Source of the DNA: a virus
Virus record (IMG/VR): IMGVR_UViG_3300025872_000037
Span: 64,088-128,087 of that record
Direction: 5' to 3' (one strand)
DNA length: 64,000 bases
A program made the translations under genes and the position numbers. Below the pieces are notes generated by a model, which worked only from the letters and a program-made list of their open reading frames with translations, was not told the DNA's origin and did not search any database. This document shows, piece by piece, positions 4,227 through 13,035 of this stretch. Each line of letters starts with the position of its first letter. Within the stretch, counting starts at the first letter, position 1.

Positions 4227-4424
4227 ATGAAACAAGAATTCGTCTCTGTTCACCTCACCGAATCCGCTGGCGACATGGCTCGTCTGGATGACGTGTACCG
4301 TACCATCACGGCGGTCAACCGTCTCCTCGGTACCAACCTCTCGGTTCGTATCGAGTTCACCGACGGCATCAATGTTGTCTCCCCCGATTCGGCCAAGTAT
4401 GCTGAGGCCCTTGTGACCAACTAA
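4227..4424 (+). CDS. Small early hypothetical protein
   Basis: 65-aa leaderless ORF. Confidence 0.65.
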   Translation: MKQEFVSVHLTESAGDMARLDDVYRTITAVNRLLGTNLSVRIEFTDGINVVSPDSAKYAEALVTN

Positions 4425-4428
4425 TCCT

Positions 4429-4629
4429 ATGGAAAATACTCCCCACTTCAGTTCTCCGAGCCATATCGTGTCAGAAAAGTATCACGAGGGCATCAACCTC
4501 CTGATCGCCGATCTCCTTGAGACGGCCGACGAGTTTGGCATCGATCGCAAGAACATCCCGACCGACTTCGTCCAGAATTACCTGGACTCAGTTGCCGAGG
4601 ACATCTTCGACACCATCGACCACAGCTAA
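4429..4629 (+). CDS. Small acidic hypothetical protein
   Basis: 66 aa, operonic spacing. Confidence 0.6.
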   Translation: MENTPHFSSPSHIVSEKYHEGINLLIADLLETADEFGIDRKNIPTDFVQNYLDSVAEDIFDTIDHS

Positions 4630-4630
4630 C

Positions 4631-4858
4631 GTGTATACCCACAACGCCACCACCGCCCGACTCATTGCGGCAGGCATCTTGCCTGATCCCAACTTCGTTC
4701 CTCGCGAGACCAAGGTCAACCGGTTTGGCGTGATGATCTGGGACCACAAGACCGCCGGGCATTGTCAGGTCCTCTCCGGCGAGAGCTGGAAGCAGGCCCG
4801 CAAGTACAACGTCCCCCGCAAGGGTTTCAGCTCGGTCGTCAAGTCGATCACCGGTTAA
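4631..4858 (+). CDS. Hypothetical protein
   Basis: GTG start 2 nt after the previous stop, in frame with ORF 4517-4858. Confidence 0.55.
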   Translation: MYTHNATTARLIAAGILPDPNFVPRETKVNRFGVMIWDHKTAGHCQVLSGESWKQARKYNVPRKGFSSVVKSITG

Positions 4859-4864
4859 TCCGTT

Positions 4865-4940
4865 GGTCGCGTAGCCCAACGGCAGAGGCAGGAGACTTAA
4901 AATCTCTTCAGTGTGGGTTCGAATCCCACCGCGACTACCA
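4865..4940 (+). tRNA. tRNA-Leu(UAA), short variable loop
   Basis: GGTCGCG/CGCGACT acceptor, GGAGA-CTTAAAA-TCTCT, TTCGAAT T-loop, encoded CCA. Confidence 0.85.
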
Positions 4941-4945
4941 TCACC

Positions 4946-5596
4946 ATGGTACCTGTAGATCCATCAGAGAAGACAACTCTCGTACTCAACCGAAACTACC
5001 AGTCAAGCGGTAGGTTCTTCACCGCGCGCGCCGCCATTCGTCACATGATGAATGGCCGAGTCAAGGGGCTTGATGCCGTGGGTAACTGCGCATCCTGGAA
5101 CGGTGACGAGGTGACAGAGGTCGAGGGCTACTCGAATAGCCTGAGCTGGGCGGATCTGACGGTTGAACTGTACCATGACCAGCCTTGCCTTCGGTCAGCA
5201 CCTAACGTCGTGACCGGAGAGGAGACTCAGTGGCCGGTGCCGACCATCGTGGTCTGTACCCATCATTTCGGTTATCATGCCAGGTTAGGCCAGAACGTGT
5301 CCCTGAAGACCATCTATGGCCTTTACAAGGGAGTCTGCCAGTACTGTCTTCAGAAAGTTCCTTTCTCAGCATCCACCAAGGACCATGTCTATCCAAAGTC
5401 CATGGGTGGTACAAATGACCAGCAGAACATTGTGCTGGCATGCCGGTCCTGCAATTCGGCCAAGGACAACTCGTACCCTTACCTAAACGTCAATGGTGAA
5501 GAGGTCAGACCGAGGTCAGCCCACCATTTCCTCAGTATGATCCCTGATGGGATGCAGATGCGAGAGGAATGGAAACAATTTTTGTTCGTTCACTAA
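4946..5596 (+). CDS. HNH endonuclease (McrA-like)
   Basis: TLVLNRNY N-terminus, CQYC, TKDHVYPKSMGG, NIVLACRSCNSAK. ATG at 4946 just after the tRNA CCA. Confidence 0.85.
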   Translation: MVPVDPSEKTTLVLNRNYQSSGRFFTARAAIRHMMNGRVKGLDAVGNCASWNGDEVTEVEGYSNSLSWADLTVELYHDQPCLRSAPNVVTGEETQWPVPTIVVCTHHFGYHARLGQNVSLKTIYGLYKGVCQYCLQKVPFSASTKDHVYPKSMGGTNDQQNIVLACRSCNSAKDNSYPYLNVNGEEVRPRSAHHFLSMIPDGMQMREEWKQFLFVH

Positions 5597-5633
5597 TCTT
5601 TTTTGTTTACAACGGTCAGAAAACATGATTGAG

Positions 5634-5641
5634 TATAAATA
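5634..5641 (+). promoter_or_regulatory. T4 late promoter heading the RNA island
   Basis: TATAAATA. Confidence 0.65.
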
Positions 5642-5649
5642 ATCAAATC

Positions 5650-5757
5650 TTGAAAAGCTTCAAACAAACCACAGACTCAAATACGTCAATCCGACCAACA
5701 ATCGGATGGGCACCTGTCTGTGGCCGCAATGAAGCCGCATTCGGGGGTTCGAAATAG
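5650..5757 (+). CDS. Putative attenuator leader peptide (35 aa)
   Basis: TTG start, MKSFKQTTDSNTSIRPTIGWAPVCGRNEAAFGGSK*; the stop lies within the 5' arm of an antiterminator hairpin. Confidence 0.55.
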   Translation: MKSFKQTTDSNTSIRPTIGWAPVCGRNEAAFGGSK

Positions 5758-5783
5758 AGATCACAATTTAGATCTCTTCTTCG

Positions 5784-5818
5784 AACCTCTGAACCAAAAG
5801 TTCAGAGGTTTTTAGTTT
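5784..5818 (+). terminator. Intrinsic terminator, mutually exclusive with antiterminator 5744-5789
   Basis: AACCTCTGAAC-CAAAA-GTTCAGAGGTT followed by TTTAGTTT. Confidence 0.85.
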
Positions 5819-5929
5819 CACCGCCAGACTCCGGCTTCAAGGAGTCCAAACGACCGACATAGGGGGATCCAATCCGCGCCCTGAAAGCGCGATAGGGACC
5901 GAAGCAATTCGTTCTTTTTAGATAAAACC

Positions 5930-5967
5930 GAGCGGCCCCGGACGCTCATTAAAATAATTCGCCGGGC
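5930..5967 (+). ncRNA. Small H-type pseudoknot RNA, unknown family
   Basis: GAGCG/CGCTC stem; loop CCCGG pairs with CCGGG after an A-rich linker. Confidence 0.45.
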
Positions 5968-5972
5968 TTCTT

Positions 5973-6035
5973 TCCTGCCTGCACTGAAGTACGGGTTCAT
6001 TCCGAGAAGCAGAAATGCTCTAGGTGCAGGTGGGA
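5973..6035 (+). ncRNA. Small multi-stem RNA, unknown family
   Basis: Closing stem TCCTGCCTGCAC/GTGCAGGTGGGA with an internal GCA-GAAA-TGC hairpin. Confidence 0.45.
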
Positions 6036-6042
6036 CTATTTT

Positions 6043-6107
6043 GCGGCCAGTTTCGACTGGCAGGTGCAACCGCAGTAACGGGTTCTGCGCAAACAAAAAC
6101 CCGGCCA
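6043..6107 (+). ncRNA. UUCG hairpin plus pseudoknot RNA, unknown family
   Basis: GCCAGT-TTCG-ACTGGC; CGCAG/CTGCG stem whose loop CGGGTT pairs with AACCCG. Confidence 0.45.
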
Positions 6108-6109
6108 AT

Positions 6110-6267
6110 TTCCCGAAGCACGATTCGGACTCACAGATAGGTTGAAGATGGCAATGTAGCTTTGCCACCGATCTCACTGTCATCCTCATAACCCACACCG
6201 CGGGGCTACACGGTGTGGTGTCTTACTGAGGTGACTGAGCTCGGCCTCGTAAAGCTGTGAGCGGGAA
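6110..6267 (+). ncRNA. Multibranch RNA with kissing loops, unknown family
   Basis: TTCCCG/CGGGAA and CTCACAG/CTGTGAG closing stems; loops TGTAGC (6155) and GCTACA (6205) are complementary. Confidence 0.5.
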
Positions 6268-6275
6268 TTCATTTT

Positions 6276-6350
6276 GCCCTTGTAGCTCAGTGGTAGAGCG
6301 CCAGTTTTGTAAACTGGATGTCGTCGGTTCAAGCCCGACCGGGGGCTCCA
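6276..6350 (+). tRNA. tRNA-Thr(UGU)
   Basis: CCAGT-TTTGTAA-ACTGG anticodon arm, cloverleaf, CCA. Confidence 0.95.
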
Positions 6351-6436
6351 TTTTCGTCCGCTTGTCTAGCGGGTTCGACGCGGTCGGTGCGATACGGTCC
6401 GCGATACCAAAAGCCTTAACCGTGTCGCCAATTTAT

Positions 6437-6564
6437 CTCCGAGAGAGGGTGAGTGAACACCTCCGTTAGCGGTAGAACTTCAATGATGCTAACGGGTATG
6501 AGCCACACGAAGTAGAGAATTGAAGCTCGAACGTGTTATAGCAGCTTAATCAGCTGCCTCGGAG
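6437..6564 (+). ncRNA. Five-way junction RNA with kissing loops, unknown family
   Basis: CTCCGAG/CTCGGAG closes four hairpins; loops CTTCAAT (6478) and ATTGAAG (6519) are complementary. Confidence 0.55.
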
Positions 6565-6571
6565 TCCCTTT

Positions 6572-6646
6572 GAGTGTGTAGTGTAACGGTCAGCACCGGC
6601 TAGCCTGCGGGCCCTGTGAGTGCGGGTTCGACTCCCGTCACACTCA
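6572..6646 (+). tRNA. tRNA-like element with non-canonical anticodon arm (pseudo-tRNA)
   Basis: Intact acceptor GAGTGTG/CACACTC, D-arm and GGTTCGACTCC T-arm; no 7-nt anticodon loop with U33; no CCA. Confidence 0.6.
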
Positions 6647-6658
6647 ATTCATTTCTGC

Positions 6659-6735
6659 GCGCCAGTGTCGTTGAACGGTTAAACAGCTGTCTGCAAAGCA
6701 GCAAAATGCAGGTTCGATTCCTGTCTGGCGCTCCA
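6659..6735 (+). tRNA. tRNA-Cys(GCA)
   Basis: GCTGT-CTGCAAA-GCAGC, U73 discriminator, CCA; D-arm irregular. Confidence 0.85.
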
Positions 6736-6741
6736 ATTTAC

Positions 6742-6833
6742 GGAAGAGTGGCTGAGTGGGTTAAGGCAACGGTCTTGAAAACCGTCGTGGCGTATAGTCG
6801 TCACCGTGAGTTCGAATCTCACCTCTTCCGCCA
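6742..6833 (+). tRNA. tRNA-Ser(UGA)
   Basis: ACGGT-CTTGAAA-ACCGT, long variable arm, GCCA end. Confidence 0.95.
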
Positions 6834-6982
6834 TTTTATAGAGAGTTAAGGGCACTGCTACCGGACGATCGCGGTAGGTTCACGTAGCTTAATAAGCACA
6901 CATAGCTAAACACTCTCTTCTTTTTAGCCTCCACTTGAGGGTGAACCACAGAGCTGGGGTAGATGAATCCAGCAGGCTATTT

Positions 6983-7066
6983 GCACTAGTGATGGAACGG
7001 CAGACATGAAAGTCTTAGAAGCTTTTGCCGCGAGGCGTACAGGTTCAAGTCCTGTCTAGTGCACCA
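6983..7066 (+). tRNA. tRNA-Leu(UAG)
   Basis: AAAGT-CTTAGAA-GCTTT, long variable arm, ACCA end. Confidence 0.95.
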
Positions 7067-7075
7067 ACAATTTTA

Positions 7076-7151
7076 GGGCCATTAGCTCATTTGGCAGAGC
7101 GCCTGATTTGCATTCAGGAGGTGAGCGGTTCGACCCCGCTATGGTCCACCA
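7076..7151 (+). tRNA. tRNA-Ala(UGC)
   Basis: CCTGA-TTTGCAT-TCAGG; G3:U70 pair. Confidence 0.95.
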
Positions 7152-7154
7152 CTT

Positions 7155-7264
7155 TGGTGTAGGGTTAAGACGGTTCGAATCCGTCGTCGCCTTTGGATCG
7201 GCGCTAGTAAACCGTTTTGGACAAGGCGAGCGCTCGCTGATAAGGTTCGAACCCTTACACACCA
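7155..7264 (+). ncRNA. tRNA-like RNA with two T-arms
   Basis: GACGG-TTCGAAT-CCGTC and TAAGG-TTCGAAC-CCTTA within a TGGTGT/ACACCA closing stem. Confidence 0.55.
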
Positions 7265-7349
7265 ATCTATTCCTGCTGGGGCTCTGATCAGAGCGCGCAT
7301 AACGAGGAGCATCACCTCGAGAGTCCACGAACAGCAGGATTCAATTTAT

Positions 7350-7420
7350 GCCGGCACGGTCAATCGCGAGACTGGTTAAAATCAGACGAGAGTGTACTGA
7401 TACCGAAAATGCCGGCACCA
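7350..7420 (+). ncRNA. Acceptor-stem/CCA minihelix-like RNA
   Basis: GCCGGCA/TGCCGGC 7-bp stem plus ACCA; no D or T arms. Confidence 0.5.
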
Positions 7421-7428
7421 ATTTCTAC

Positions 7429-7503
7429 ACGGACGTGGTACATTAGTAGTGCAGCAGTCTCCAAAACTGCCTTATGGGGGTGCGATTCCCTCCGTCCGTG
7501 CCA
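7429..7503 (+). tRNA. tRNA-Trp(CCA)
   Basis: GCAGT-CTCCAAA-ACTGC, G73, CCA; T-loop TGCGATT is atypical. Confidence 0.85.
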
Positions 7504-7509
7504 TTTTAC

Positions 7510-7586
7510 GGGGTGGTAGCTCAGCTGGTTAGAGCGTCTGCCTGTCACGCAGAAGGTCGCGGGATCGAGGCCCGTCCATCCCGCCA
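7510..7586 (+). tRNA. tRNA-Asp(GUC)
   Basis: TCTGC-CTGTCAC-GCAGA, GCCA end. Confidence 0.9.
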
Positions 7587-7591
7587 TTTTT

Positions 7592-7666
7592 GCCGCCATC
7601 GTCTAACGGTCAGGACAGCGGGTTTTCATCTCGCTAATCGGGGTTCGATTCCCCGTGGTGGTACCA
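7592..7666 (+). tRNA. tRNA-Glu(UUC)
   Basis: GCGGG-TTTTCAT-CTCGC, CCA. Confidence 0.9.
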
Positions 7667-7699
7667 TTTTTACGTATGTTATAAATAGGTCATAAGTTT

Positions 7700-8140
7700 A
7701 TGACCAAAAACGAAAAAATTAGTCAAGCATTAAAGAAGCGTTTTAGCAAACAGCCGCATCACAAAAAAGGTAAAGCTGGTAAAAAGCACGATAAAATCGC
7801 AAAGCAAAAAATACGCGAAGCTTTAATAAAACATTATGATTCTGCAGGAAGAATGTCCGATGCGCAGAAAAAAGCACGCAATAAAGCTAATGTTTATGCT
7901 TACAGAGCTAGAAAACGAAATGCGATACCAGAAAATGCAAATTTAGCTCTAATAAAACTAATTTATGAAAAATGTCCAGAAGGTTATCACGTAGATCATA
8001 TAATTGCATTGGCATCTGGAGGTCTACACCATCAAGATAATCTTCAATATTTACCTATTGCGGAAAATTGCCGCAAAGGTAAAAGCAATAATTACAATTC
8101 TTCTTTAGCCAAAGATTGGCGAGATTTTATTGGCATGTAG
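7700..8140 (+). CDS. HNH homing endonuclease inserted in the tRNA cluster
   Basis: YHVDHIIALASGGLHHQDNLQYL..ENCRK; basic N-terminus; AT-rich; own TATAAATA at 7680-7687. Confidence 0.85.
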   Translation: MTKNEKISQALKKRFSKQPHHKKGKAGKKHDKIAKQKIREALIKHYDSAGRMSDAQKKARNKANVYAYRARKRNAIPENANLALIKLIYEKCPEGYHVDHIIALASGGLHHQDNLQYLPIAENCRKGKSNNYNSSLAKDWRDFIGM

Positions 8141-8205
8141 TTCAATGGTAGAACCCGCGACTGTTAATCGCGCAATTGGTTGTTCGACTCAACCCATGCC
8201 AGCCA
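8131..8205 (+). tRNA. tRNA-Asn(GUU)
   Basis: CGCGA-CTGTTAA-TCGCG, GCCA end. Confidence 0.9.
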
Positions 8206-8215
8206 GTTTATTTTT

Positions 8216-8292
8216 CGGCGCGTAGCACAGCCTGGTAGTGCACTTGCTTTGGGAGCAAGCCGTCGGGGGTTCGAATCCCTCCGCGCCGACCA
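8216..8292 (+). tRNA. tRNA-Pro(UGG)
   Basis: CTTGC-TTTGGGA-GCAAG, C1-G72, ACCA end. Confidence 0.95.
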
Positions 8293-8299
8293 TTTTCGA

Positions 8300-8374
8300 T
8301 GGCCCATTGTGTAATGGTTAGCACAGCTGACTTTGACTCAGCTAGTTGGGGTTCGAGTCCCTGTGGGCCAGCCA
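8300..8374 (+). tRNA. tRNA-Gln(UUG)
   Basis: GCTGA-CTTTGAC-TCAGC, U1-A72, GCCA end. Confidence 0.95.
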
Positions 8375-8484
8375 ATTTGAGCAGAGTCCTAGCTGTTCGT
8401 AAAACAGGAGCCGGTGTGATCGGTATTGCCGTTGTTCAGCGGGTAACCGTGCGCGGGAGAATCGGGTGCTGCTCTTTTTACTTT

Positions 8485-8580
8485 ATGAAAAAACCTGAAA
8501 ACTTATCACAGATCCTTCTAGTTATCCTGGCGGTCATCGCCGATATTTTCTTAATCGTAAACGTCATCCATCACTGGTGA
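8485..8580 (+). CDS. Small single-TM protein (31 aa)
   Basis: MKKPENLSQILLVILAVIADIFLIVNVIHHW. Confidence 0.5.
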   Translation: MKKPENLSQILLVILAVIADIFLIVNVIHHW

Positions 8581-8581
8581 C

Positions 8582-8722
8582 ATGATCACTCGTCTCGTTC
8601 AATTAGTGTTTCTTTCCGTTCTCATTCCGGCTGCGATCTCAGCATTTTTGATCGTGGCCGTTACGTTAACTGCAAGCATCGTGGTAGGATTTCTGGTCCT
8701 ATTCCACAGATTGCTCTCGTAG
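8582..8722 (+). CDS. Small hydrophobic membrane protein (46 aa)
   Basis: MITRLVQLVFLSVLIPAAISAFLIVAVTLTASIVVGFLVLFHRLLS; starts 1 nt after the previous stop. Confidence 0.5.
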   Translation: MITRLVQLVFLSVLIPAAISAFLIVAVTLTASIVVGFLVLFHRLLS

Positions 8723-8728
8723 CTTCTT

Positions 8729-8804
8729 GGTCCTGTAGCTCAATGGTCAGAGCAGAGGACTCATAATCCTTTGGTTGTGGGTTCAAGTCCCACCGGGACC
8801 ACCA
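8729..8804 (+). tRNA. tRNA(CAU), probably Ile2 (lysidine type) or elongator Met
   Basis: GAGGA-CTCATAA-TCCTT; C4-G69 and C5-G68 as in TilS substrates. Confidence 0.85.
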
Positions 8805-8819
8805 TATATACTTTTGTAC

Positions 8820-8895
8820 GCGGTAGTAGCTCAGTTGGTAGAGCGCCATCCTTCCAAGCTGGTTGTCGCAGGTTCGAATCCTGTCTGCCGCTCCA
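8820..8895 (+). tRNA. tRNA-Gly(UCC)
   Basis: CTTCCAA loop, GCG acceptor start, U73, CCA. Confidence 0.95.
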
Positions 8896-8904
8896 ATTTA
8901 CTTG

Positions 8905-8981
8905 GTCCTCGTAGCTCAACCGGAAAGAGCACCGTTTTTCTAAATCGGTGGTTGTGGGTTCGAGTCCCGCCGTGGACGCCA
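8905..8981 (+). tRNA. tRNA-Arg(UCU)
   Basis: CCGTT-TTTCTAA-ATCGG, GCCA end; two stem mismatches. Confidence 0.85.
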
Positions 8982-9077
8982 TTTTGACTTTGCGAGGAAT
9001 CGCAAATGGTGGAGGGGTAATCCCAACACCCCCTGGAAGTGGGAAGCGCATACTTAAATCACGCTTAACTAATTTTT

Positions 9078-9454
9078 GGGCCTGTTCTGGATTCTATTCA
9101 GTGACAGACTTATTGTAAGCAAGCATGGTTGCTGGACCATTCAACATCAGCAAAAACACAAACGGCATCTCAAATGTCATCGAGGCGATCTTCGGTACTC
9201 GTACCGAGGAGCTTCAGCTCGCAGCCTAAGAAACTGTGACCGACACGTCGTCCGATTCTCGCTGAGTCGACGGTCGTCATCAAGCGAGACTGATCTTCGA
9301 GAATTGTGGCTCGGTAGAAGAATCAGTACACTCTAGCCATTACGCCAGGAGAGTTGATAGCGACAGCTCCTGGCATGATCACAGCTATCTAAGCTTGTAG
9401 AAAACGATCGGAAAAGCACTGAACACACGGGTTCGACTCCCGTCAGGTCCACCA
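9078..9454 (+). ncRNA. ssrA: tmRNA
   Basis: GGGCCTG/CAGGTCC-ACCA with G3:U70, T-arm GGGTTCGACTCCC; tag reading frame 9164-9229 GISNVIEAIFGTRTEELQLAA*. Confidence 0.92.
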
Positions 9455-9661
9455 CTATTCCTTCGGTAACTTACGAAGGCAGACTAATCCCTCGACGAAG
9501 ACTACCTCAAACCTGTCGCCGTCCTCAACTCTGAGCATGGCGGGTGTGAGTTCTTCATCAAAGAAAAGTGAGCCATCAGTGGTAAGTCTGAGGTCGTATC
9601 CGTGGAATCTCATGGGTGTTCCTTTCTATTTATGAAATGCTTAGAATTCGTTCACTTTTTT

Positions 9662-9690
9662 GTTTACAGGGTCATGCGGCAGTGTATGAT
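9662..9690 (+). promoter_or_regulatory. Early-type promoter followed by a boxA-like element
   Basis: GTTTAC-N17-TATGAT; TGTTCTTTTTCAA at 9708-9720; only non-coding sequence follows. Confidence 0.7.
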
Positions 9691-9725
9691 CTGATCATAG
9701 TCAATTTTGTTCTTTTTCAACTTTT

Positions 9726-9970
9726 GTGACGGAATAAGCCTTTTCCTTAGGGCTAACGTATAACCACGGTGAAGAACCGCGGTTAGTTCCGGGACTTGTA
9801 AGTAAGTAAGGTACTACGCTGAGGCCTAGGTTGGCCAACCGAAGCTACCAGAGGTACGGGTTGTAAGCATGAAATATCATGATATGGCGACTCGTTACGG
9901 TGCGACGGCACCATCTGACTGAATAACTGAAGGCAAGTTCCCCGGATGGAGGTAATCATTAGTCCTCCCA
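9726..9970 (+). ncRNA. About 245-nt structured RNA, unknown family
   Basis: Long-range CCGGGACTTG/CAAGTTCCCGG, several hairpins, terminal GGAGG...CCTCC-CA hairpin; no credible ORF. Confidence 0.55.
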
Positions 9971-10001
9971 ATTTTTACTTTCGAGGCTTGATCTCCTCGA
10001 A

Positions 10002-10124
10002 ACCCTCTCCCTTAGCAGCATTCACTAATCTATTGTCTGCACGGATGTTCGGTAGGGAACAAATGCTGGTAATGATGAAATAGACATCGGCTGGCACTAC
10101 ACGACAACGCTACTGTGAGAGGGT
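10002..10124 (+). ncRNA. Structured RNA, unknown family
   Basis: ACCCTCTC/GAGAGGGT closing stem with internal CAGCATT/AATGCTG. Confidence 0.45.
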
Positions 10125-10219
10125 ACTCTTTCATCATACTCGACTAGGCGAGTCTAAATAGAAGAATAGGCCTAGTGCGGCAGATGCATCAGTGCGTAGC
10201 GCAAAGTGCATCTGCGACT

Positions 10220-10360
10220 TGCCACGCCACAGCTCCGGTGAGCTCAGGATTAAAGCTAAAAGCGCTGTGTGAATAAACACGAGGACAAAAATTGGCTAAT
10301 GTATATCTCATATGGCCGATAAATAAATCTCGTTGCGATAAGATATTCGCCAGCGTGGCA
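10220..10360 (+). ncRNA. Multibranch RNA with kissing loops, unknown family
   Basis: TGCCACGC/GCGTGGCA; loops ATATCT (10303) and AGATAT (10341) are complementary. Confidence 0.5.
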
Positions 10361-10386
10361 CCTCTTTCAAGTTCTTTTCAATTTAT

Positions 10387-10461
10387 TGCAGTGTGGAGCA
10401 GTGGCAGCTCGCTTGGCTCATAACCAAGAGGTCAGGGGTTCGATTCCCTTCTCTGCACCCA
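10387..10461 (+). tRNA. tRNA-Met(CAU), initiator-like
   Basis: GGAGCAG..GCTCG D-arm (A11-U24), CTTGG-CTCATAA-CCAAG; only two of the three G-C anticodon-stem pairs. Confidence 0.85.
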
Positions 10462-10464
10462 ATT

Positions 10465-10688
10465 TTCTTAGATCGCAATTCAATAGGCAAATGCGCCGTT
10501 AGTGGTCGTATTCATCGAAGCTAGCAACGTCAGAACAGCAGGACAGCTATGACGCCGAGTGGCTAATTGCGACGGATGGTATGTCGAAGCCCGGATGTTA
10601 AGACCCGCTGTTATCTAGAACGGTCTCATCCGGTGGCAGTAATGCCTAGCAGAGCCCAGGACAACATCGATGAGCAGCGATCTAAGAA
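10465..10688 (+). ncRNA. About 225-nt structured RNA with kissing loops, unknown family
   Basis: 12-bp closing stem TTCTTAGATCGC/GCGATCTAAGAA; loops AACAGC (10534) and GCTGTT (10607). Confidence 0.55.
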
Positions 10689-10849
10689 AAAGCAGATACT
10701 GCACCTATAGTTAACTATAGGAAGCTTTCTGGTGGTCTGAACCTCGCGCCAGCGGACGCCTTCCGCTGGCGGTGTAAGCAACCGGTTGCTAGATACGAGG
10801 CTCTGAAAGTTCACAAAGACCTTACTTTACGATAATAAATAGTTTTCCT

Positions 10850-12361
10850 ATGCGTAATAACACACATAATAATCCAAACCTGAAGAACGGATTGCTTATC
10901 AGCATTCTTTTCTTCTTTTTTGCAGCTTCAGCAGCAGCGCTCCCAAGCACTGGTGCTTCTAACCTCCAGACAACTCCTGGAGTAACGTTCACGCAGTCGG
11001 GTTCGACGCTGGCGTTTAATGCCCCGGATCGGGCGATTCTGAACTGGAACAACTTTGGTTCCGGTACAGATCATATCGCGGTTGCTGACACTATCAGGTA
11101 TAATCTTCCTGGTGCTGCAGCATCGGTCCTTAACATCGTTTCCGGTGGTGCACAGACCACGATCAACGGAACGATTGAATCAAACGGAAAAGTTTACGTG
11201 CTAAATCCAAACGGCATCGTGATCGGTGGCACCTCACGCATCGATACCAATGCATTTGTTGCTAGCGCAGTGGACAATCCATTTGCTGCACAGTTCAAGT
11301 ACATGGCTGATGGAGTTATTCCTTCAGAGGTGGGTGGACAGCGTACTGCAAATGGTAACGTTGTTGCTCAAACTGGTGCAATCTTTGCAACTCCTAATGT
11401 GGTCATTCTTGGCAAGGATATCACCATCGGTGGTGTCTTGACTGCCGGAAATATGCTGCTTGGTGGAGATGGCGCAGTGGTCGTTGGTGGTGCAGCATCA
11501 ACCACGTGGGTTTCTGGTGATTTGACAATCACTAATCCTACTGGCACAACTACGATTGGAGTTCCTACCGCTAACGTCGGCACCAATAATGCTATTTCCG
11601 TCATTTCGACATCTGGCGATATTACTAATGCTATTGGTTCTCGTGTTCTAGGAAAGAATCTGATCGCTAACACTGTTAGTGGTAATGTCACACTTGCCGC
11701 TGTTGCTACAAGCGCAGTCACTGCAAATGGCAAGAACGTCACAGTTGCATTTGACGCCGGATCACTCACACCAAGCTTCTCGGGATCTGCAGTCACTGGC
11801 CTAACAGTCACTGCTCCTGCTTATCTGCTCTTAGCTGATGTCAAGGGCGACGCTGCCAATAACAGCTTCACAGCTGGTGGCACACTGACTCTTGGCAAGG
11901 TTCATCTGGGCGGTAGCGCATCCTTCACGGGATCTCGTGTAGTTGACTCGGTTGACAGCGTATTCGTCTATGACCGTACGTCATTCTCCGCCACCGCTGG
12001 AGATGTTGCAGTTACCAAGGCTGGTCACAGCTTCGGCCCTCTGTCGATCTCTGCCACTGGCAATGGTACTGTCTATGAGAATGCTACGATCAATCTCAAT
12101 GCTGTGAACGTCAAGGAGCTTGTCCTGAAGACAAAGGAAGCATTCTTCCAGACTCCTAACACCTTCGCTCTGACAGCCACGAAGTTCTCGCTCGATACTC
12201 TCGGCGCAGTCACCTTCACCGGCGGTACGATCTCGAACGGTCTGACGATCAATGCAGGATCAGGTAACGTTGACCTGAGCAAGCTAAGCCTCGTCACCAA
12301 TCTGAATAGCGTTGCTCCAGTTGTCACCACAACCGGTACGGTTGCTAACCCAGCTCAATAA
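10850..12361 (+). CDS. Secreted beta-helix protein with filamentous-haemagglutinin N-terminal (TPS) domain
   Basis: Signal peptide; ILNWNNF, VLNIVSG, INGTIESNGKVYVLNPNGIVIG (NPNG motif); Gly/Thr/Ala-rich beta repeats. Confidence 0.85.
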   Translation: MRNNTHNNPNLKNGLLISILFFFFAASAAALPSTGASNLQTTPGVTFTQSGSTLAFNAPDRAILNWNNFGSGTDHIAVADTIRYNLPGAAASVLNIVSGGAQTTINGTIESNGKVYVLNPNGIVIGGTSRIDTNAFVASAVDNPFAAQFKYMADGVIPSEVGGQRTANGNVVAQTGAIFATPNVVILGKDITIGGVLTAGNMLLGGDGAVVVGGAASTTWVSGDLTITNPTGTTTIGVPTANVGTNNAISVISTSGDITNAIGSRVLGKNLIANTVSGNVTLAAVATSAVTANGKNVTVAFDAGSLTPSFSGSAVTGLTVTAPAYLLLADVKGDAANNSFTAGGTLTLGKVHLGGSASFTGSRVVDSVDSVFVYDRTSFSATAGDVAVTKAGHSFGPLSISATGNGTVYENATINLNAVNVKELVLKTKEAFFQTPNTFALTATKFSLDTLGAVTFTGGTISNGLTINAGSGNVDLSKLSLVTNLNSVAPVVTTTGTVANPAQ

Positions 12362-13035
12362 TGAATAAGCTCATCGCGCTGTTCCTCGCCACTGCAGCCA
12401 TTTCACAGGCTGCTTTGGCTCCTGCTAATTATGGTACTCTGACAGTCGGTTACCGCGAGAAGGATATCACCTTCGGTCGTGTTTCTAGCCGTCAGGGAGC
12501 TTATGTCGCCGATGCTGCTTTCAAGTGGGAAAGTTTCCGGATGAATGCAGTAATGCAGAACAACGTTTCTCTCAAGGATTCCGGTCTTTATCAGGCCGAT
12601 CTTATCGGAGGTTACTCGTTCTTTTCTACGCTTGCTAATGTCGAGCTCGGTACAAAGTACGTCACGAAGTTCAAGGCTGATCCAAAAGATCGGATGAATC
12701 ACTGGCGTCCATTTGTTACAGTCGGTAACTCCTGGTTGGCAGTCACTGCGACAGCTGATCTTGAGGCTCAAACCACGAACATCGAAGGCAAGGTCTCAAA
12801 GACACTTCCTCTGTTCTTAGGCCTTAGCAGCACCACTGCTCTATCAGCCGGTTATACCGATGTCAATGATGCCCTTCCTCGTACTCTGAAGGAAGTCAAG
12901 TACACCAATGCGTACTACGGCGGATCCTTCGATATCACCTGGAAGATTGCTACTGCAGGTATCTACGTCCTGCACGATGGTATCAAGAAGGAATGGTCAG
13001 CTGGCTGGAGAGCCGGAACTACAATCCGCTTCTAA
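12361..13035 (+). CDS. Putative outer-membrane beta-barrel protein
   Basis: Signal peptide, alternating amphipathic strands, C-terminal Phe (GTTIRF). Confidence 0.7.
   Translation: MNKLIALFLATAAISQAALAPANYGTLTVGYREKDITFGRVSSRQGAYVADAAFKWESFRMNAVMQNNVSLKDSGLYQADLIGGYSFFSTLANVELGTKYVTKFKADPKDRMNHWRPFVTVGNSWLAVTATADLEAQTTNIEGKVSKTLPLFLGLSSTTALSAGYTDVNDALPRTLKEVKYTNAYYGGSFDITWKIATAGIYVLHDGIKKEWSAGWRAGTTIRF

What the first reader, a model, noticed from the sequence alone, without database searches (positions are those of the whole stretch)
5820..10820. About 20 unannotated, individually folded RNAs arrayed among the tRNAs
Seen: apart from one HNH gene and two tiny ORFs, the gaps between tRNAs are filled with GC-rich units of 40-245 nt. 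Most have their own closing stem, and they are separated by the same short A/U-rich spacers (ATTTT) that separate the tRNAs. Units: 5827-5905, 5930-5967, 5973-6035, 6043-6107, 6110-6267, 6355-6430, 6437-6564, 6840-6918, 6925-6979, 7155-7264, 7271-7339, 7350-7420, 8379-8474, 8988-9066, 9458-9625, 9726-9970, 10002-10124, 10143-10216, 10220-10360, 10465-10688, 10700-10812. None resembles another in sequence or any family I recognise, and several end in or near CCA. Inference: a polycistronic precursor is cut by tRNA-processing enzymes into a set of stable RNAs, perhaps nuclease decoys, protein or ligand sponges, or anti-defence RNAs. This is my best candidate for an undescribed system.
Basis: partly seen in the sequence, partly recalled or inferred. 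Interest (0 to 1): 0.88.

Follow-up and report, generated by a model that had tools for sequence, protein, structure and literature searches.

The report
Structured RNA cassettes among phage tRNAs
The tRNA gene cluster of this uncultured freshwater T4-like phage also carries about eighteen other small folded RNA genes, one a known self-cutting ribozyme and most in no catalogue, whose folds evolution has preserved but whose jobs are unknown.

Summary
The observation largely holds. All 17 tRNA matches of the 128-kb phage record lie in this island. Of the 21 listed units, 18 recur in related phage contigs. Fourteen show base-pair changes on both sides in an automatic count, and all seven formally tested beat the shuffled and slid controls, one only moderately. 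Fold-energy z-scores average -2.37, against -0.73 for coding controls.

Corrections:
- 10138-10219 is a Pistol ribozyme.
- 9726-9970 is a distant manA-like RNA.
- 7155-7264 is a tRNA-derived RNA with two T-arms.
- 9458-9625 is not an RNA unit but a conserved 52-aa gene on the opposite strand.
- 6043-6267 has no homolog.

I read the island as two stable-RNA operons, each headed by a boxA-like motif. Their cassettes are shuffled one by one between relatives. They are probably cut out by host tRNA-processing nucleases and, at one joint, by Pistol.

Processing and function are inferred, not shown. The closest precedents are T4 rnaC/rnaD and the manA, wcaG and abiF RNAs inside a cyanophage tRNA array. 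This scan has reported the same layout on other lake-phage DNA (e1-6108888, e1-5881039, e1-5881051, e1-5885463). It is a greatly expanded variant of a known kind.

The parts
4865..10461 (+). tRNA/tmRNA island: 16 tRNAs, one odd tRNA-like gene (6571-6647) and a tmRNA (9078-9454)
   Evidence: ARAGORN and Rfam. All 17 tRNA matches of the 128-kb record lie here.
5783..5811 (+). Terminator-like hairpin ending the leader in front of the array
Evidence: 12-pair stem followed by a T run.
5827..5905 (+). U1: conserved 79-nt RNA, always the first element of the array
   Evidence: The covariance model finds one copy in each of 34 sources. With 18 distinct sequences, 99.3% of cells pair, 7 of 17 pairs change on both sides, and the covariation score is 0.438 against 0.180 shuffled, 0 of 500.
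5906..5919 (+). boxA-like motif (GTTCTTT) just after U1
   Evidence: Present within about 12 nt after U1 in 17 of 17 relatives examined. The resemblance to rrn boxA is recalled, not tested.
5930..5967 (+). U2: candidate H-type pseudoknot with an A-rich loop
   Evidence: The core is present in 15 of 15 relatives printed. The first stem varies while still pairing; the second helix (CCCGG/CCGGG) never varies. Fold z is 0.06 because a pseudoknot is not modelled. Weak support.
5973..6035 (+). U3: three-way-junction RNA
   Evidence: 12 distinct sequences. 92.2% of cells pair, 3 pairs change on both sides (157 of 500 shuffles reach this), 9 such cells (0 of 500), covariation score 0 of 500. z -3.89. 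Moderate support.
6043..6267 (+). U4 (6043-6107) and U5 (6110-6267): unsupported units
   Evidence: No nhmmer hit in 176 loci. z is 0.03 and -3.20. One contig of a relative joins 6009 to 6271.
6355..6430 (+). U6: structured RNA
   Evidence: 3 sequences; 3 of 16 pairs change on both sides; 1 of 48 cells unpaired.
6437..6564 (+). U7: multi-helix RNA
   Evidence: 2 sequences at 88% identity; 6 of 36 pairs change on both sides; 0 of 72 cells unpaired. z -3.97.
6840..6918 (+). U8: structured RNA
   Evidence: 4 sequences; 3 of 18 pairs change on both sides; 0 of 72 cells unpaired.
6925..6979 (+). U9: structured RNA
   Evidence: 2 distinct sequences; 6 of 16 pairs change on both sides; 0 of 32 cells unpaired.
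7155..7264 (+). U10: tRNA-derived RNA with two T-arm hairpins inside a closing stem
   Evidence: 11 of 33 pairs change on both sides, 0 of 500. The model finds a fourth member in L070 and weakly matches long-arm tRNAs, including T4 tRNA-Leu. Absent from relatives, with a 7-nt repeat at the joint.
7271..7339 (+). U11: stem-closed RNA
   Evidence: The closing stem changes on both sides at two pairs between the window and L007, by eye. The automatic count found none because the 3' end was misaligned. Weak support.
7350..7420 (+). U12: 7-bp acceptor-like stem plus free ACCA on a non-cloverleaf body
   Evidence: 3 sequences at 97% identity, so uninformative. z -2.86. No tRNA-model match at E up to 10.
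8379..8474 (+). U13: structured RNA
   Evidence: 3 distinct sequences; 2 pairs change on both sides and 7 on one side, of 26; 7 of 77 cells unpaired. It follows a different neighbour in relatives. Weak support.
8988..9066 (+). U14: conserved unit without informative variation
   Evidence: One homolog, in L099. A relative's RNA-library contig joins 8985 to 9077 without it.
9455..9613 (-).
   Evidence: The protein is conserved in L102, L003, L019 and L110. No Pfam family.
9663..9690 (+). Sigma-70-like promoter of the second RNA operon
   Evidence: TTTACA, 16 nt, TATGAT: 10 of 12 matches. Kept in 5 of 8 relatives.
9704..9717 (+). Second boxA-like motif
   Evidence: Present upstream of U16 in 4 of 8 relatives.
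9726..9970 (+). U16: manA-like 245-nt RNA (Rfam alignment spans 9699-9976)
   Evidence: 26 of 63 pairs change on both sides, 0 of 500. manA scores 23.7 bits against a threshold of 55.2; homologs score 30.5 and 26.1.
10002..10124 (+). U17: structured RNA
   Evidence: 13 of 39 pairs change on both sides, 0 of 500.
10138..10219 (+). U18: Pistol ribozyme with a long third helix; predicted cut between 10216 and 10217
   Evidence: 36.9 bits against a threshold of 34.5. Homologs at the same place score 46.3-59.9 bits. The third helix varies while still pairing.
10220..10360 (+). U19: RNA that always follows Pistol
   Evidence: 11 of 37 pairs change on both sides, 1 of 500. The joint between Pistol and this unit's closing stem is kept in 7 of 7 sequences.
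10465..10688 (+). U20: 224-nt multi-branched RNA
   Evidence: 15 of 57 pairs change on both sides, 0 of 500.
10700..10812 (+). U21: structured RNA at the end of the island
   Evidence: 3 sequences; 4 of 41 pairs change on both sides; 4 of 123 cells unpaired. z -3.38.

Best explanation
The stretch is the stable-RNA island of a freshwater T4-like myophage. Besides tRNAs and a tmRNA it encodes about 18 unrelated small structured RNAs on the same strand. They are arranged as exchangeable cassettes, each closed by its own stem and set off by the same short U-rich spacers as the tRNAs.

I read the island as two untranslated operons.
- The first starts behind a leader terminator at 5783-5811. It opens with a fixed head (U1, a boxA-like GUUCUUU motif, pseudoknot U2) and runs to the tmRNA.
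- The second starts at a promoter at 9663-9690, again followed by a boxA-like motif. It holds the manA-like RNA, U17, a Pistol ribozyme, U19, tRNA-Met, U20 and U21.

Inferred steps:
- Host Nus-type antitermination carries RNA polymerase through the many stems.
- Host RNase E, RNase P and 3' exonucleases separate the modules as they do tRNAs.
- Pistol cuts itself at 10216/10217 and so makes the 5' end of U19.
- The released RNAs act in trans, on targets that are unknown.
For: Shown:
- Same strand: G.U 221 against A.C 30 cells.
- Fold-energy excess over coding controls.
- 18 of 21 units recur as RNA in relatives.
- Both-sided pair changes occur in 14 units by the automatic count.
- Seven formal tests beat the shuffles and slid partners, U3 only moderately.
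- Unpaired nucleotides are invariant in U1.
- tRNAs and units share the same spacers.
- Cassettes change neighbours, and are present or absent at exact boundaries.
- Pistol is found at the same place in 7 of 7 sequences and always abuts U19's stem.
- A boxA-like motif follows U1 in 17 of 17 relatives, and the promoter is kept in 5 of 8.
- An RNA-library contig of mean depth 757 bridges the tmRNA, U16 and U17, while contigs on the phage's coding parts in the same run have depth 2-8.

Precedent:
- T4 rnaC/rnaD lie 1-6 nt from each other and from tRNA-Arg.
- manA lies flush between two tRNAs in S-CREM1.
Against: - No read-level 5' or 3' ends. All four runs are contigs, whose single depth figure cannot rank parts of a contig, and DNA may be present in RNA libraries.
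- The highly covered contig stops at 10121, not at the predicted Pistol cut.
- The Pistol variant has G-A, not the consensus G-U, at the scissile step, and only 3 pairs in its second helix. One relative has A-A there. Activity is therefore unproven.
- The coding 'unit' 9458-9625 also gave 5 of 43 both-sided pairs, so units with few such pairs (U13, U11, U2) are weak.
- U12 and U14 carry no informative variation, and U4 and U5 have no homolog.
- The boxA reading rests on a motif recalled from memory.
Confidence: 0.65

Rival explanations
1. The units are cis-acting punctuation only. They are structures that insulate neighbouring tRNAs so they fold correctly, guide or block nucleases, or stabilise the long precursor. 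They have no life of their own after processing.
For: - The head elements U1, the boxA-like motif and U2 hold a fixed position in every relative, which suits a cis role.
- Every unit is stem-closed and followed by a U-rich spacer.
Against: - Insulators need only a stem. These are multi-helix folds of 55-245 nt with invariant unpaired nucleotides.
- The 18 conserved units fall into as many unrelated families.
- Cassettes keep their sequence while changing neighbours.
- One is a ribozyme, and one resembles a family found in other phages and bacteria.
Confidence: 0.15
2. Some neighbouring units are domains of one large composite RNA, comparable to GOLLD or ROOL with an embedded tRNA. This applies chiefly to the second operon (9726-10812).
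For: - The order Pistol, U19, tRNA-Met, U20 is kept in several relatives.
- GOLLD can carry tRNAs in its linker and lies near tRNA islands (PMC12286853, passages read).
- One RNA-library contig bridges the tmRNA, U16 and U17.
Against: - No GOLLD or ROOL match at E up to 10.
- U16 moves independently: it lies before the tmRNA in L014 and L027.
- U-rich spacers and a self-cleaving ribozyme lie between the domains.
Confidence: 0.1
3. The units are decaying tRNA pseudogenes left behind by turnover in the array.
For: - The U10 model weakly matches long-arm tRNAs at 21-28 bits.
- U12 keeps an acceptor stem plus ACCA.
- T4 rnaC ends in a T-arm-like hairpin.
Against: - No unit matches the tRNA model at E up to 10.
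- The folds differ from a cloverleaf and are maintained by compensatory change, which pseudogenes would not show.
Confidence: 0.03

Closest known systems
Phage T4 tRNA cluster with the small stable RNAs rnaC (species 1) and rnaD (species 2) and the SegB homing endonuclease (NC_000866)
   Same: - Non-tRNA stable RNAs of 119-139 nt lie on the tRNA strand, 1-6 nt from each other and from a tRNA.
- A homing-endonuclease gene sits inside the cluster.
- The phage is a T4-like myovirus (baseplate genes).
- The function of the RNAs is unknown.
   Different: - Two RNAs in T4 against about 18 here.
- No sequence similarity (nhmmer found nothing).
- Here there are also a tmRNA, a ribozyme and an internal promoter.
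- That rnaC and rnaD are cut from the tRNA precursor is recalled, not seen in a call.
manA, wcaG and abiF RNAs in the tRNA array of cyanophage S-CREM1 (OP535465; PMC9964418; Weinberg 2010, PMC2864571)
   Same: - The annotated manA (10215-10429) lies flush between tRNA-Leu and tRNA-Asn.
- wcaG lies 47 nt before tRNA-Met, and abiF lies between tRNA-Asn and tRNA-Gly.
- This is the same cassette-in-array layout, in a T4-like phage.
- U16 shares manA's 5' GUGAC/GAAUAA/UAA module and its 3' hairpin.
   Different: - U16 and its relatives score 23.7-30.5 bits against a threshold of 55.2.
- They lack the proposed pseudoknot and carry a 137-nt insertion.
- A sequence profile of the U16 family does not find the S-CREM1 manA.
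- The papers treat manA and wcaG as cis-regulatory.
Pistol self-cleaving ribozyme (Rfam RF02679)
   Same: - Above the gathering score.
- First hairpin, AAAUA linker and loop pseudoknot are present.
- Relatives score 46-60 bits.
   Different: - G-A at the scissile step, a 3-pair second helix and a 36-nt third helix.
- It is placed so that the cut would make the 5' end of a particular neighbouring RNA.
Theta (HDV-like) ribozymes next to tRNAs of gut phages (PMC10879173, passages read)
   Same: A small self-cleaving ribozyme embedded among phage tRNA genes and proposed to process the neighbouring RNA.
   Different: - A different ribozyme class.
- Theta is proposed to trim tRNA 3' trailers. Here the neighbours of Pistol are non-tRNA RNAs.
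GOLLD and ROOL large RNAs near phage tRNA islands (PMC5737381, PMC12286853; passages read)
   Same: Phage-borne structured RNAs of unknown function near tRNAs, possibly co-transcribed with them.
   Different: Those are single RNAs of 580-800 nt. Here there are many small unrelated ones, and neither family matches.

Membership tests
Pistol ribozyme (RF02679) | Score at or above Rfam's gathering threshold (34.5 bits) | tested here: met
   The window scores 36.9 bits. Homologs at the same place score 59.9 (L099), 54.5 (L019), 52.1 (L010) and 46.3 (L110).
Pistol ribozyme (RF02679) | First hairpin whose loop pairs with a downstream segment (pseudoknot), plus the conserved AAAUA linker | tested here: met
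   Read. The loop ACUAGGC is complementary to GCCUAGU downstream, and the linker CUAAAUAG is present. Both are identical in 7 of 7 sequences, so there is no covariation.
Pistol ribozyme (RF02679) | Four-pair second helix and a G-U scissile dinucleotide (the G-U numbering is recalled) | tested here: not met
   the second helix is AAG/CUU (3 pairs) and the dinucleotide is G-A. L110 has A-A.
Pistol ribozyme (RF02679) | Self-cleavage | not testable with these tools
   Needs an in-vitro transcription and cleavage assay.
manA RNA (RF01745) | Score at or above the gathering threshold (55.2 bits) | tested here: not met
   23.7 bits in the window, 30.5 in L099, 26.1 in L102.
manA RNA (RF01745) | Conserved 5' module and 3' hairpin loop | tested here: met
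   The cmscan alignment matches both at high posterior probability. The 3' hairpin is invariant in 8 of 8 relatives (helix 12).
manA RNA (RF01745) | Pseudoknot joining the 5' and 3' ends | tested here: not met
   Both pseudoknot strands align to gaps or unrelated letters.
T4-type small stable RNAs of the tRNA cluster (rnaC, rnaD) | Non-tRNA RNA gene on the tRNA strand, a few nt from tRNAs, in a T4-like phage | tested here: met
T4-type small stable RNAs of the tRNA cluster (rnaC, rnaD) | Sequence homology to rnaC or rnaD | tested here: not met
   nhmmer found nothing at E up to 10 in window 4401-11000 and nothing at E up to 1 in 176 loci.
T4-type small stable RNAs of the tRNA cluster (rnaC, rnaD) | Accumulates as a discrete stable RNA cut from the tRNA precursor | not testable with these tools
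   Only contigs of RNA libraries were available.
tRNA (RF00005), for U6, U10 and U12 | Cloverleaf match to the tRNA model | tested here: not met
   No tRNA match on these units at E up to 10. The U10 model matches long-arm tRNAs only weakly, at 21-28 bits.
Y RNA-like YrlA with its Ro partner | YrlA match on the unit and a TROVE (Ro) gene in the genome | tested here: not met
   The weak YrlA matches lie on tRNAs, not on U10. There is no TROVE or RtcB match in the 128-kb record, which is 76% complete.
GOLLD / ROOL | Match to the Rfam model | tested here: not met
   No match at E up to 10 in 4500-11200.
rrn-type boxA antitermination signal | boxA sequence at the head of an untranslated operon, bound by NusB/NusE | tested here: inconclusive
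   GTTCTTT follows U1 in 17 of 17 relatives and follows the second promoter in 4 of 8. The 8-mer GTTCTTTT occurs 3 times in the 5-kb island, out of 6 on the + strand of the 64-kb window. The consensus is recalled and binding was not tested.

The most novel reading that the evidence does not exclude
The island is an RNA arsenal. A T4-like phage uses the host's tRNA-processing machinery, plus a built-in ribozyme, to release more than a dozen unrelated folded RNAs. These act in trans against the host: as decoys or inhibitors of tRNA-targeting and other defence nucleases, as antitoxin mimics, or as binders of ligands or proteins. Related phages swap them one by one in an arms race. Several would then be new functional RNA classes. 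The 'cis-regulatory' label of manA and wcaG would need revising. The solitary abiF RNA in the S-CREM1 tRNA array would be an example.
Probability: 0.15. Interest if true: 0.9.

Novelty: new variant of a known kind. Interest (0 to 1): 0.6.

Why it matters
Phage tRNA clusters are usually explained by codon usage or by escape from tRNA-cleaving defences. The two extra RNAs in T4's cluster have stayed unexplained for decades. Here the same slot holds about 18 different conserved folds, so the tRNA array looks like a general launch pad for small phage RNAs.

What this offers:
- A dozen or more candidate RNA families with covariation support, from abundant lake phages. They are ready for self-cleavage, ligand-binding and structural tests.
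- A natural case of a Pistol ribozyme placed to make the end of a specific neighbouring RNA.
- Evidence that manA-type RNAs sit between tRNAs rather than in front of genes. This bears on how that orphan family is interpreted.

Tried and rejected
- **Minus-strand ORF 5818-6198 (126 aa) as a gene over U1-U5.** The translation is arginine-rich and low in complexity. Only part of it (U1-U3) is conserved, and that part is conserved as RNA. Rejected.
- **Ro/YrlA, RNA-repair or CCA-adding partners.** No TROVE, RtcB or PolyA_pol match in the 128-kb record, which is 76% complete.
- **Homology to T4 rnaC or rnaD.** None.
- **Relatives among 50,697 deposited phage genomes.** blastn of 9699-10380 and of 5815-6270 found nothing. 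The whole region matched only through its tRNAs.
- **Tandem or type-III-antitoxin-like repeats.** None in the array.
- **Sequence profile of the U16 family against the S-CREM1 manA.** No hit.
- **Pfam on the 52-aa protein and on three small upstream ORFs.** Nothing significant.
- **Literature.** Searches found no paper describing libraries of small RNA cassettes in tRNA arrays.
- **RNA libraries.** Most units had no informative cover, or only low-depth contigs of relatives. The depth bins on tRNAs may come from other organisms. No starts or ends can be read from contigs. Parts without cover are not evidence either way.
- **Pfam** was used only to name neighbouring genes.

Full report
**What the window is.** The window is the second half of a 128-kb IMG/VR virus record, estimated 76% complete. 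It encodes T4-type baseplate hub and wedge proteins. The best DNA holders among public runs carry freshwater labels: shares of 0.59-0.87 in 5 runs of 4 studies.
- ARAGORN finds 16 tRNAs, one odd tRNA-like gene and a tmRNA between 4865 and 10461, all on the + strand.
- Rfam confirms these and adds one Pistol ribozyme.
- All 17 tRNA matches of the whole record lie in this island.

**The observation.**
- Reading the sequence and tabulating the junctions confirms the layout. T-rich spacers of 2-11 nt (TTTT, ATTTAT, TCTTTT and the like) separate most of them, and the same spacers follow the CCA ends of the tRNAs.
- No unit resembles another; the only direct-repeat families are tRNA parts.
- Minimum-free-energy z-scores against dinucleotide shuffles average -2.37, with 13 of 21 at or below -2. 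For 21 length-matched coding segments the mean is -0.73 with 2 of 21 at or below -2. For 15 tRNAs of the array the mean is -1.47 with 4 of 15. Mann-Whitney p is 2.6e-4.

**Conservation and covariation.**
- I fetched 176 related loci, using a ClpP-like and a TPS-domain neighbour gene as anchors and one DNA motif.
- nhmmer finds homologs for 19 of 21 units. There are none for 6043-6107 or 6110-6267.
- RNAalifold on each family shows pairs changed on both sides in 14 units, not counting the coding 'unit'.
- Formal counts with shuffled and slid-partner controls:

| Unit | Sequences | Pairs changed on both sides | Shuffles reaching this | Call |
|---|---|---|---|---|
| U1 | 18 | 7 of 17 (99.3% of cells paired) | covariation score 0 of 500 | 91 (also 47) |
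| U16 | 8 | 26 of 63 | 0 of 500 | 48 |
| U20 | 6 | 15 of 57 | 0 of 500 | 49 |
| U10 | 3 | 11 of 33 | 0 of 500 | 83 |
| U17 | 3 | 13 of 39 | 0 of 500 | 84 |
| U19 | 5 | 11 of 37 | 1 of 500 | 85 |
| U3 | 12 | 3 of 17 | 157 of 500 (cells and score 0 of 500) | 51 |

- On the + strand structures, G.U cells outnumber A.C cells 221 to 30 over 18 families. The RNAs are therefore read from the tRNA strand.
- An internal warning: the coding 'unit' 9458-9625 still gave 5 of 43 both-sided pairs, with 15 of 129 cells unpaired. I therefore grade the units as follows.
  - Strong: U1, U7, U9, U10, U16, U17, U19, U20.
  - Moderate: U3, U6, U8, U18, U21.
  - Weak: U2, U11, U13.
  - Conserved but uninformative: U12, U14.
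  - Unsupported: U4, U5.

**Known families.**
- *Pistol.* 10138-10197 passes Rfam's threshold (36.9 against 34.5 bits). The low score comes from a 36-nt third helix. Relatives with a short third helix score 46.3-59.9 bits at the same place, and their cores are almost identical to the window's. The L099 alignment places the scissile step at G-A, which is 10216/10217 in the window. The second helix has three pairs. The four bases after the cut run straight into U19's closing stem in 7 of 7 sequences.
- *manA-like.* 9699-9976 gives a weak manA match of 23.7 bits; relatives give 30.5 and 26.1, against a threshold of 55.2. It shares manA's 5' module and 3' hairpin, but not the pseudoknot, and it carries a 137-nt insertion.
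- *tRNA-derived U10.* It has two T-loop hairpins. Its model finds a fourth member in a more distant phage (L070). It weakly matches long-arm tRNAs such as T4 tRNA-Leu.
- No other unit matches any of 4227 Rfam families at E up to 10.

**What is not an RNA unit.** 9458-9625 covers a 52-aa minus-strand ORF (9455-9613). Its protein is conserved in four relatives, including distant ones. It matches no Pfam family.

**Transcription layout.**
- A terminator-like hairpin at 5783-5811 precedes U1.
- U1 is the first element in every relative mapped.
- U1 is followed within about 12 nt by GTTCTTT in 17 of 17 relatives.
- Next comes a U2-type pseudoknot core, present in 15 of 15 relatives.
- The best promoter-like site of the region lies behind the minus-strand gene, at 9663-9690 (10 of 12 matches). 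It is kept in 5 of 8 relatives and followed by the same motif in 4 of 8.
- The motif resembles the boxA of ribosomal RNA operons. That is my recollection, and an earlier scan note gave the lead. It would fit Nus-type antitermination on long untranslated transcripts full of stems followed by U runs.

**Cassette behaviour.**
- Element maps of 12 relatives show the units keeping their sequence while changing neighbours. U13 follows tRNA-Gln here, tRNA-Tyr in L014 and L027, and U8 in L102. U10 follows tRNA-Ala here and lies 65 nt after tRNA-Val in L099. U16 lies after the tmRNA here and before it in L014 and L027.
- Contigs of close relatives lack U10 exactly, with a 7-nt repeat at the joint, in two runs. 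They also lack U14 exactly.

**Expression.** Four RNA-library runs hold parts of the stretch, but only as contigs.
- In one run, a 2269-nt contig of mean depth 757 bridges three tRNAs, the tmRNA, U16 and U17. It comes from a close relative, with 12-14 differences per 400 nt.
- Contigs on the phage's coding parts in the same run have depth 2-8.
- This fits an abundant stable RNA precursor or set of products. A contig has a single depth figure and shows no ends, and DNA in the library cannot be excluded.
- That contig stops at 10121, before Pistol.

**Mechanism.**
- Shown: the genes, their strand, their folds under selection, their modular exchange, the Pistol homology, and the conserved head motifs and promoter.
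- Inferred: co-transcription in two operons; antitermination; release by RNase E at U-rich spacers, by RNase P at tRNA-like ends and by 3' trimming back to the closing stems; Pistol self-cleavage making U19's 5' end; action in trans. The E. coli tRNA pathway is described in passages of PMC10879173 and in the abstract of PMC5291269 (listing).
- Function remains open.

**Comparison with what is known.**
- T4's annotated cluster has rnaC (139 nt) and rnaD (119 nt), 1-6 nt from each other and from tRNA-Arg, with segB inside the cluster. They share no sequence with these units.
- In cyanophage S-CREM1, the annotated manA lies flush between tRNA-Leu and tRNA-Asn. wcaG lies before tRNA-Met, and abiF lies between tRNA-Asn and tRNA-Gly (Table 4 of PMC9964418, seen). 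That placement does not fit the cis-regulatory reading given in that paper or in PMC2864571 (passages read).
- Theta ribozymes beside phage tRNAs (PMC10879173) and GOLLD/ROOL near tRNA islands (PMC5737381, PMC12286853; passages read) are further precedents.
- No deposited phage genome matches these units by blastn.

**Verdict.**
- This scan has already reported the same layout on other lake-phage DNA: e1-6108888, e1-5881039, e1-5881051 and e1-5885463.
- The finding is a real, greatly expanded variant of the T4 rnaC/rnaD situation. It is not a categorically new system.
- The individual RNA families are mostly uncatalogued, and several are well enough supported to test.

Noticed in passing
window 6571-6647: A tRNA-like gene that ARAGORN reads with a four-base anticodon (cctg). 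Rfam's tRNA model gives it 42.7 bits. It is the only one in the array without an encoded CCA end. The same odd gene is called in relatives L102 and L110.
   Followed up: partly
window 9455-9613 (minus strand): A conserved 52-aa protein gene on the opposite strand, wedged between the tmRNA and the second RNA operon. It matches no Pfam family and its function is unknown.
   Followed up: partly
window 5911, 9709, 10371: The 8-mer GTTCTTTT occurs three times in the 5-kb island, out of 6 on the + strand of the whole 64-kb window. The first two follow the starts of the two RNA operons and resemble an rrn boxA.
   Followed up: partly
window 7700-8140: An AT-rich ORF of 146 aa between tRNA-Glu and tRNA-Asn whose stop codon lies inside the 5' end of tRNA-Asn. 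It has an HNH-like motif by eye but no Pfam hit. It looks like an inserted homing-endonuclease gene.
   Followed up: no
L179 (S-CREM1 OP535465) 9745-10643 of the record: The Rfam families manA, wcaG and abiF, two of them typed cis-regulatory, lie in inter-tRNA slots of an isolated cyanophage and are followed by tRNAs rather than by genes.
   Followed up: partly
window 7147-7259: U10 is present or absent among close relatives, with a 7-nt repeat at the joint. The same 113-nt skip was seen in contigs of two runs.
   Followed up: partly
window 8485-8580 and 8582-8722: Two tiny hydrophobic ORFs sit inside the array after U13, by my reading. I did not check whether they are conserved.
   Followed up: no
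window 10850-13035: A TPS-secretion-domain protein of 503 aa and an adjoining 224-aa protein lie directly after the island. Other notes of this scan cover them.
   Followed up: no
L070 19172-19298: A 127-nt RNA with the same two T-arm hairpins as U10, in a more distant phage contig whose ClpP-like protein is about 60% identical.
   Followed up: partly
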